The position numbers are program-made. A stretch of DNA of 64,000 bases from the NCBI RefSeq assembly GCF_988243305.1, contig NZ_OZ547136.1; one strand, 5' to 3'. Of this stretch, positions 26,955-27,546 are shown piece by piece (the stretch's first letter is position 1; every line of letters starts with the position of its first letter).

Positions 26955-27546
26955 TCAACACAACGTTATCGCTAGTTTGCCAGGCTCGATGTTGACCTTC
27001 CTCATCCTGCGGGGGATTAGGCAGGGAGGAGTTGCGGGGATGAGCAAGGAAATGTGATCTCGACCACTTAAAGCTAGTGCAAACCACAGGATTAGCAGCA
27101 AATCAATGCCATACAGCGCAGAAAATCTGTATCTAAGTGCAAAAAATGGCCGTTGCGTATTTTCAAAAAGCGGAAGGTAACTCTATAAATTAAGTAAAGG
27201 AGTAAAACAGTTTCATAAGTAAAATATCCAGTGTGCTCCATCTCATTCTTAATAGATTTATTAAGATCATCTTTTTAGATAGCACTTTCATCAGGAATGA
27301 AGAAGAAACCCTTGCTTAAATGAATCTGATGAACATAAGGGAAATACCGTACAACCCAGCATTCACGCTGTATCAGCGTCGTTTTAGGTGAGTCATTAAT
27401 AAAGATTTGGAATTGTGACAGAGTGCAAATTCAGACACATAAAAAAACGTCATCGCTTGCATTAGAAAGGTTTCTGGCCGACCTTATAACCATTAATTAC
27501 GAAGCGCAAAAAAAATAATATTTCCTCATTTTCCACAGTGAAGTGA

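What the first reader, a model, noticed from the sequence alone, without database searches (positions are those of the whole stretch)
26996..27045. Paired MalT boxes upstream of malP
Two GGATGAG-type boxes lie on opposite strands 70-115 bp upstream of malP, consistent with the MalT-dependent malPQ promoter. The maltodextrin (malPQ) and glycogen (glgP) phosphorylase systems are both present in the window, which makes the paralogy easy to confuse in automated annotation.
Basis: partly seen in the sequence, partly recalled or inferred. Interest (0 to 1): 0.15.

Follow-up and report, generated by a model that had tools for sequence, protein, structure and literature searches.

The report
MalT-activated malPQ promoter of E. 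coli

Summary
The window is an E. coli chromosome. The finding lies between malP (24537-26930, minus strand) and the divergent malT (27553-30258). Both GGATGAG boxes exist where stated: box 1 at 27000-27009 (minus strand) and box 3 at 27036-27045 (plus strand), 70-115 bp upstream of the malP ATG. Boxes 2 and 3 form a direct repeat with 13 bp start-to-start, which is the published MalT motif. Box 1 is inverted relative to them and overlaps the -35 region.

The bare motif is not enriched in the window. The arrangement is unique there and appeared in 0 of 1000 shuffles. Across 105 Enterobacterales species, box 2 is exact in 100 and all three boxes are exact in 55. A conserved CA-N3-T -10 element places the transcription start near 26967, which puts the boxes at -37.5, -60.5 and -73.5.

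glgP is present (48824-51271), separated from glpD by a fimbrial/IS island. Curated models separate it cleanly from malP.

Verdict: an already known promoter of low interest. Two side observations are a conserved CTAATCC element between boxes 2 and 1, and a conserved strong CRP-like site at about -93.5.

The parts
27000..27009 (-). MalT box 1, the promoter-proximal site: CAGGATGAGG, core GGATGA at 27002-27007. It reads in the direction of malP transcription and is centred at about -37.5, overlapping the -35 region.
   Evidence: The core is invariant apart from the allowed G/T position in 75 aligned species. An exact hexamer is present in 104 of 105 loci. The position fits the published rule for the proximal MalT box.
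27023..27032 (+). MalT box 2: AGGGAGGAGT, core GGAGGA at 27025-27030. It is the promoter-proximal member of the direct repeat, centred at about -60.5.
   Evidence: Mean column conservation is 0.99. It is exact in 100 of 105 species, with a fixed 17-nt gap to the box 1 hexamer in 55 of the 56 species that have all three hexamers exact.
27036..27045 (+). MalT box 3: GGGGATGAGC, core GGATGA at 27038-27043. It is the distal member of the direct repeat, 13 bp start-to-start from box 2 (two 10-mers separated by 3 bp), centred at about -73.5.
   Evidence: It is exact in 55 of 105 species, has 1 mismatch in 12, and is replaced by a conserved variant (TACGCC or TACTCC in malP orientation) in Yersinia, Photorhabdus, Serratia, Hafnia and Tolumonas.
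27014..27020 (.). Conserved CTAATCC element (malP orientation; plus strand GGATTAG, inside GGGGATTAGG at 27012-27021) between boxes 2 and 1, at about -47 to -53. Its role is unknown. It could be a degenerate fourth MalT contact, an RNA polymerase alpha-CTD contact, or a bending element.
   Evidence: The 10-mer is one mismatch from the extended consensus. Column conservation is 0.81-0.95, against 0.28-0.6 in the 12 bp after box 1. CTAA follows box 2 in 79 of 100 species.
26974..26979 (-). Inferred -10 hexamer CAAACT (-12 to -7), preceded by TG at -15/-14 in E. coli.
   Evidence: A conserved block GGCA-ACTAGCG lies at a fixed distance from box 1. The A at -11 and the T at -7 are invariant in 75 species. 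The CA-N3-T skeleton is kept in distant genera. This is inferred, not mapped experimentally here.
26967..26967 (-). Inferred malPQ transcription start (+/-1 nt), giving a 5' leader of about 37 nt. K-12 equivalent: 3552510.
   Evidence: Inferred from the -10 footprint and from the published position of the proximal MalT box relative to the start.
27053..27068 (.). CRP-like dyad TGTGATCTCGACCACT (22-mer 27050-27071), centred at about -93.5 from the inferred malP start. It is about 430 bp from the malT start, so it is not the known malT CRP site.
   Evidence: It matches 17 of 22 positions of the CRP consensus, with a perfect left half. There are two such sites in 64 kb and none in 30 shuffles. 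The half-sites are conserved, the spacer is variable, and the offset is fixed in 63 of 75 and 64 of 100 species.
24537..26930 (-). malP, maltodextrin phosphorylase, the first gene of the regulated operon.
   Evidence: NCBIfam NF011561, 1704 bits, cut-off 1273. Annotated as malP in near-identical genomes.
22446..24527 (-). malQ, 4-alpha-glucanotransferase (amylomaltase), the second gene of the operon.
   Evidence: ORF. Annotated as malQ at the equivalent position in PCN033 and K-12.
27553..30258 (+). malT, the gene for the activator that binds the boxes, transcribed divergently. Its own promoter is far from the boxes: CRP site at 27414-27429, start at about 27492.
   Evidence: NCBIfam NF003420, 1646 bits, cut-off 537. 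CRP at -70.5 of the malT promoter is from PMC10882989. The site was located.

Best explanation
The finding is the core of malPp, the MalT-dependent promoter of the E. coli malPQ operon. It has three asymmetric MalT boxes. Boxes 3 and 2 lie on the plus strand as a direct repeat (two 10-mers separated by 3 bp), centred at about -73.5 and -60.5. Box 1 is in the opposite orientation, centred at about -37.5, where a -35 hexamer would otherwise be. When maltotriose and ATP are bound, MalT multimerises and binds the boxes cooperatively. The protomer at box 1 recruits RNA polymerase to a promoter that has no usable -35 and only a weak -10 (CAAACT). Transcription starts near 26967 and runs through malP and malQ. 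Shown here: the sequence, the non-random arrangement, cross-species conservation of the boxes and their spacing, and the identity of the genes. Inferred: the exact start site. Taken from the literature: MalT binding and the activation mechanism.
For: The region is 99.9% identical to E. coli genomes in which it lies between annotated malP and malT. The 116-bp promoter core is at least 99% identical in 5382 of 5424 E. coli records, and 26928-27061 is identical to K-12. The boxes match the published core GGA(T/G)GA and extended GGGGA(T/G)GAGG consensus, and a proximal box overlapping the -35 region is the published rule (PMC7567727, citing Richet & Raibaud 1989, Vidal-Ingigliardi et al. 1991 and Boos & Shuman 1998). 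malPp is used as a MalT-dependent promoter in current work. The arrangement is unique in the window and occurred in 0 of 1000 shuffles. The loci for the phylogenetic footprint were found through the MalT N-terminus, not through the boxes, and 105 of them have divergent malP and malT. Of these, 56 have the three exact hexamers, with a 17-nt gap in 55. Boxes 3, 2 and 1 and a -10 block are conserved islands, while the 12 bp after box 1 are unconserved. Box 1 stays 61-73 bp from the malP ATG in most species, while the distance to malT ranges from about 275 bp to more than 2 kb. The generic sigma-70 scan finds no self-sufficient promoter for malP, as expected for an activator-dependent promoter. 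The mechanism, in which multimerisation allows cooperative binding to MalT boxes and recruitment of RNA polymerase, is from PMC4381067.
Against: No binding or transcription data were or could be generated here. The primary papers that define the malPp sites (Vidal-Ingigliardi 1991; Danot & Raibaud 1993, 1994; Boos & Shuman 1998) are not held in the library. My recollection of their positions (-37.5, about -60, about -73) therefore could not be checked against text. The start site is inferred. Box 2 and box 1 each deviate from the 10-bp extended consensus at two flanking positions.
Confidence: 0.94

Rival explanations
1. One reading: the functional unit is the inverted pair of GGATGAG boxes (1 and 3), and the GGAGGA between them is incidental.
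For: Boxes 1 and 3 are the two best matches to GGATGAG in E. coli.
Against: Box 2 is the most conserved element (mean 0.99; exact in 100 of 105 species). Box 3 is exact in only 55 of 105. The 13-bp direct repeat of boxes 2 and 3 is the motif reported for all MalT promoters (title of Vidal-Ingigliardi 1991, cited).
Confidence: 0.03
2. The boxes act on the divergent malT gene (autoregulation) rather than on malPQ.
For: The boxes lie in the shared malP-malT intergenic region.
Against: They are about 450-490 bp from the malT start (about 27492, with its CRP site at -70.5). Across species their distance to the malP ATG and to the malP -10 is fixed, while the distance to malT ranges from about 275 bp to more than 2 kb.
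Confidence: 0.02
3. A chance cluster of purine-rich, Shine-Dalgarno-like words, or a ribosome-binding site for a tiny plus-strand ORF (GGAGGAG, then ATG at 27040, encoding MSKEM-stop).
For: An ATG lies about 9 nt after it.
Against: The arrangement occurred in 0 of 1000 shuffles. Spacing is conserved across 105 species. In many genera box 3 is TACGCC or GGAGGA, which removes the ATG. There is no promoter-like site for a plus-strand transcript here, and no ORF of 20 aa or more that is specific to this spot.
Confidence: 0.01
4. The conservation reflects a structured RNA or sRNA gene rather than protein-binding DNA.
For: Strong non-coding conservation.
Against: No Rfam family matches; the only hit is a eukaryotic snoRNA at E = 0.28, far below its gathering score and elsewhere in the spacer. 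The conserved islands are 6-10 bp words at fixed spacing, separated by variable spacers, which is the pattern expected of binding sites. They lie upstream of the inferred start.
Confidence: 0.01

Closest known systems
E. coli K-12 malPp, the MalT-dependent promoter of malPQ (K-12 3552510-3552588)
   Same: The sequence from the malP ATG through box 3 is identical. It has the same flanking genes, the same three boxes and the same inferred -10.
   Different: Nothing within the promoter core. The first difference from K-12 is at 27062 (G versus A), in the spacer of the CRP-like dyad. An 11-bp indel lies at 27345-27355, far from the promoter.
Klebsiella pulAp and the engineered malPp800, which have four MalT sites
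   Same: Both are MalT-dependent promoters built from the same asymmetric boxes. malPp800 is described as a mimic of pulAp with four MalT sites and high affinity.
   Different: The natural promoter in this window has three consensus-core boxes. The fourth candidate (GGGGATTAGG, 27012-27021) has a non-consensus core (GGATTA) and lies 11 bp, not 13 bp, from box 2.
malEp/malKp, the divergent MalT- and CRP-dependent promoters of the malB region
   Same: They use the same MalT boxes, a direct-repeat motif and a proximal box at the -35 region (from the literature: title cited; Richet 2000, cited). CRP sites lie upstream of the MalT sites.
   Different: From memory, and consistent, malPQ is regarded as depending on CRP only indirectly, through malT.

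Membership tests
MalT-dependent promoter (maltose regulon) | Copies of the asymmetric MalT box, core GGA(T/G)GA and extended GGGGA(T/G)GAGG | tested here: met
   Three exact core hexamers are at 27002-27007(-), 27025-27030(+) and 27038-27043(+). The 10-mers have 2, 2 and 1 mismatches.
MalT-dependent promoter (maltose regulon) | Two MalT boxes in direct repeat (10-mers separated by 3 bp) | tested here: met
   Boxes 2 and 3 are 13 bp start-to-start on the same strand. This is the only such pair in 64 kb, and occurs in 23 of 1000 shuffles. It is kept in 55 species exactly and in 12 more with one mismatch. The motif is named in the title of Vidal-Ingigliardi 1991. The '3 bp' spacing is from memory.
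MalT-dependent promoter (maltose regulon) | A promoter-proximal box overlapping the -35 region at a fixed distance from the -10 and the start | tested here: met
   The box 1 hexamer ends 21 bp upstream of the conserved CA-N3-T hexamer, and this spacing is ungapped in 75 species. That places the hexamer at -40 to -35, in line. The start site itself is inferred.
MalT-dependent promoter (maltose regulon) | No functional -35 hexamer and a weak -10, giving dependence on the activator | tested here: met
   No sigma-70-like promoter was found on the minus strand upstream of malP. The -35 position reads AGGAAG and the -10 reads CAAACT.
MalT-dependent promoter (maltose regulon) | The downstream operon belongs to maltodextrin metabolism, and malT is present in the genome | tested here: met
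   malP and malT are both NCBIfam equivalogs above their cut-offs. malQ follows malP.
MalT-dependent promoter (maltose regulon) | MalT binding and maltotriose/ATP-dependent activation shown experimentally | not testable with these tools
   This rests on the literature for the identical K-12 sequence. The primary papers are not held.
CRP-binding site (for the side observation at 27053-27068) | A match to the 22-bp palindromic consensus AAATGTGATCTAGATCACATTT, with conserved half-sites and a variable 6-bp spacer | tested here: met
   It matches 17 of 22 positions with a perfect left half, and no such match occurred in 30 shuffles. Half-sites are conserved and the spacer is variable in 63 of 75 species.
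CRP-binding site (for the side observation at 27053-27068) | CRP binding and an effect on transcription | not testable with these tools
   malP is not named among the CRP targets listed in PMC3105977. PMC6390033 treats the CRP effect on malPQ as indirect.

The most novel reading that the evidence does not exclude
malPp may contain two conserved elements beyond the three classic MalT boxes. One is a CTAATCC block at -47 to -53, tied to box 2. It is more widely conserved than box 3, and might be a degenerate fourth MalT contact or an alpha-CTD docking site. The other is a strong, conserved CRP-type dyad at about -93.5. If these are functional and not already described, a promoter usually presented as the simplest MalT-only promoter would have direct CRP or alpha-CTD input.
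Probability: 0.12. Interest if true: 0.3.

Novelty: already known. Interest (0 to 1): 0.08.

Why it matters
It matters little as a discovery, because malPp is one of the classic model promoters for MalT. What the check adds is a corrected layout in window and K-12 coordinates: three boxes rather than two, with the direct repeat of boxes 2 and 3 plus an inverted proximal box. It also adds an independent comparative confirmation across 105 species, and an inferred -10 and start site. The two extra conserved elements could be worth a look by someone with the 1990s footprinting papers or RegulonDB at hand.

Tried and rejected
1. I tried to read the primary descriptions of malPp and all were unavailable. 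These were Danot & Raibaud 1993, Boos & Shuman 1998, Richet & Raibaud 1989, Kolb 1983, Richet 2000, Marquenet & Richet 2010 and Danot 2001. Published site coordinates therefore could not be compared directly. The consensus and the positional rule came second-hand from PMC7567727.
2. A full-text search for the promoter sequence itself found only unrelated human primer sequences.
3. The supplement of PMC10427625 does not give the malPp800 sequence.
4. Simple motif counts in the window are uninformative, because neither the hexamer nor the 10-mer is enriched. Only the arrangement is significant.
5. The generic sigma-70 scan found no malP promoter. I read this as expected for an activator-dependent promoter, not as evidence against one.
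6. I rejected a structured RNA, a mini-ORF with a Shine-Dalgarno site, malT autoregulation and chance.
7. I first expected glgP next to glpD, as in strain PCN033. In this window it is displaced by about 10.5 kb.

Full report
**Where the finding lies.** The window is an E. coli chromosome. An 801-bp query around the finding is 99.9% identical to many complete E. coli genomes, in which it spans the gap between annotated malP and malT. The gene order in a near-identical genome is gntT, malQ, malP, then malT, rtcA, rtcB and rtcR. In the window the ORFs are malQ at 22446-24527(-), malP at 24537-26930(-) and malT at 27553-30258(+). MalP scores 1704 bits on the NCBIfam maltodextrin phosphorylase equivalog (cut-off 1273). 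MalT scores 1646 bits on its equivalog (cut-off 537). The N-terminal translations are [11 protein letters not shown]... and [13 protein letters not shown]....

**The observation.** GGATGA is at 27002-27007 on the minus strand (10-mer CAGGATGAGG, 27000-27009). GGATGA is at 27038-27043 on the plus strand (10-mer GGGGATGAGC, 27036-27045). They lie 70-79 and 106-115 bp upstream of the malP ATG, as stated.

**Is it more than chance?**
- The motif alone is not informative. The window has 58 GGAKGA hexamers against 48.9 +/- 6.9 expected. It has 67 near-matches to the 10-mer against 70.5 expected.
- The arrangement is informative. This is the only place in 64 kb with three hexamers within 36 bp (34 of 1000 dinucleotide shuffles reach this somewhere).
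- It is the only same-strand pair spaced 13 bp (23 of 1000 shuffles).
- A 13-bp direct repeat with an opposite-strand hexamer within 60 bp occurred in 0 of 1000 shuffles.

**What the literature says.** The classic papers are not in the held library.
- PMC7567727 summarises them. The MalT site is a GGA(T/G)GA core, extended to GGGGA(T/G)GAGG, and a box overlaps the -35 region with its end at about -34.5 to -35.5.
- The title of Vidal-Ingigliardi et al. [quoted passage not shown]
- PMC10427625 uses malPp800, an engineered malPp that mimics pulAp and carries four MalT sites.
- PMC4381067 states the mechanism. Inducer-driven multimerisation allows cooperative binding to the MalT boxes and recruitment of RNA polymerase.
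- From memory, and unverified here, the natural malPp has three sites, at about -37.5, -60 and -73.

**Comparative test.** To avoid circularity, I fetched homologous loci by scanning one genome per species with a degenerate pattern for the MalT N-terminus, not for the boxes. Of 121 loci, 105 carry divergent malP and malT. They cover Escherichia, Citrobacter, Enterobacter, Klebsiella, Raoultella, Kluyvera, Kosakonia, Cedecea, Buttiauxella, Serratia, Yersinia, Photorhabdus, Hafnia, Pantoea, Tolumonas and others.
- In 56 loci the exact pattern TCMTCC-N7-TCMTCC-N15-19-GGAKGA (malP orientation) is present within 200 bp of the malP ATG, and the second gap is 17 nt in 55 of them.
- Over all 105 loci, box 2 is exact in 100. 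Box 3 is exact in 55, has one mismatch in 12, and is otherwise a conserved variant (TACGCC or TACTCC) at the same 13-bp offset.
- An ungapped alignment of 75 species anchored on box 1 shows conserved islands at box 3 (mean 0.89), box 2 (0.99) and box 1 (0.94). Twelve unconserved columns follow (0.28-0.6). Then comes a conserved block GGCA-ACTAGCG, in which the A and T of CA-N3-T are invariant.

**Inferred -10 and start site.** I read that block as the -10 hexamer (CAAACT, 26974-26979, minus strand). This puts the start at about 26967 and the box 1 hexamer at -40 to -35, as the published rule requires. The box centres then fall at -37.5, -60.5 and -73.5. The -35 position reads AGGAAG. The generic sigma-70 scan finds no promoter for malP, as expected for an activator-dependent promoter.

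**Which gene the boxes serve.** Box 1 stays 61-73 bp from the malP ATG in most species. The distance to malT ranges from about 275 bp to more than 2 kb. The malT promoter is about 450 bp away: its CRP site is at 27414-27429 and its start near 27492. The boxes therefore serve malPQ, not malT.

**Within E. coli.** The 116-bp core is at least 99% identical in 5382 of 5424 records. Window positions 26928-27061 are identical to K-12 MG1655. K-12 equivalents:
- start: 3552510
- -10: 3552517-3552522
- box 1: 3552543-3552552
- box 2: 3552566-3552575
- box 3: 3552579-3552588

**Rivals.**
- A two-box inverted pair is contradicted by box 2 being the best conserved element.
- A chance cluster of Shine-Dalgarno-like words, or a mini-ORF (MSKEM) on the plus strand, is contradicted by the shuffles and by species in which box 3 has no ATG.
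- A structured RNA is not supported.

**The glgP remark.** glgP is in the window at 48824-51271(-), scoring 1846 bits (cut-off 1546), followed by glgA. MalP and GlgP are 48% identical. Each falls well below the other's curated cut-off (878 below 1546; 937 below 1273). Curated models therefore do not confuse them. In this strain glgP is not next to glpD, because a fimbrial cluster with IS elements lies between them.

**Side observations.**
- A CTAATCC block (27014-27020; plus strand GGATTAG inside GGGGATTAGG, one mismatch from the extended consensus) lies between boxes 2 and 1 and is conserved at 0.81-0.95. CTAA follows box 2 in 79 of 100 species. Its hexamer is 11 bp, not 13 bp, from box 2, and its role is unknown.
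- A CRP-type dyad TGTGATCTCGACCACT (27053-27068, about -93.5) matches 17 of 22 consensus positions. Its half-sites are conserved, its spacer is variable, and its offset is fixed in 63 of 75 species. The held literature treats the CRP effect on malPQ as indirect and does not list malP among CRP targets. I could not check the older footprinting papers.

**Verdict.** This is the known malPp promoter. The architecture is three boxes, with the direct repeat of boxes 2 and 3 as the paired unit. Interest is low.

Noticed in passing
window 27053-27068 (22-mer 27050-27071): A strong CRP-like dyad, TGTGATCTCGACCACT, matching 17 of 22 consensus positions with a perfect left half. It lies about 93.5 bp upstream of the inferred malP start. 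Half-sites and position are conserved in about two thirds of the species examined. It is distinct from the known malT CRP site at 27414-27429. The held literature treats the CRP effect on malPQ as indirect.
   Followed up: partly
window 27014-27020 (10-mer 27012-27021): A CTAATCC block (plus strand GGATTAG, within GGGGATTAGG) between MalT boxes 2 and 1. It is conserved at 0.81-0.95 across 75 species and tied to box 2, even in Yersinia, Serratia and Photorhabdus. It is more widely conserved than box 3, and its function is unknown.
   Followed up: partly
window 38494-48339: A chaperone-usher fimbrial gene cluster of about 10 kb (adhesin-like, chaperones, minor subunits) lies between glpD and glgP. 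Strain PCN033 has only a 222-bp pseudogene at this position. The usher gene is split into a C-terminal part (41478-43385) and an N-terminal part (45968-46720).
   Followed up: partly
window 43437-45426: An IS4-family transposase ORF (43437-44654, plus strand) and an IS3-family transposase ORF (44536-45426, minus strand) sit between the two usher fragments. This suggests IS insertion inactivated the fimbrial usher.
   Followed up: no
window 27345-27355: An 11-bp insertion relative to K-12 MG1655 (TACCGTACAAC) in the middle of the malP-malT intergenic region, together with several nearby substitutions. It is far from both promoters.
   Followed up: no
loci L003, L005, L026, L047 and others (Yersinia, Photorhabdus, Serratia, Hafnia, Tolumonas), upstream of malP: At the box 3 position these genera carry a conserved variant, TACGCC (plus-strand sense GGCGTA), instead of GGATGA. 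Box 2 and box 1 remain canonical, often with one extra base between CTAAT and box 1. This suggests a lineage-specific weak or altered distal MalT site.
   Followed up: partly
window 62392-62413: The only other sequence in the window matching 17 of 22 positions of the CRP consensus (AAGTGTGAGCTACTTCAAATTT). Its context was not examined.
   Followed up: no
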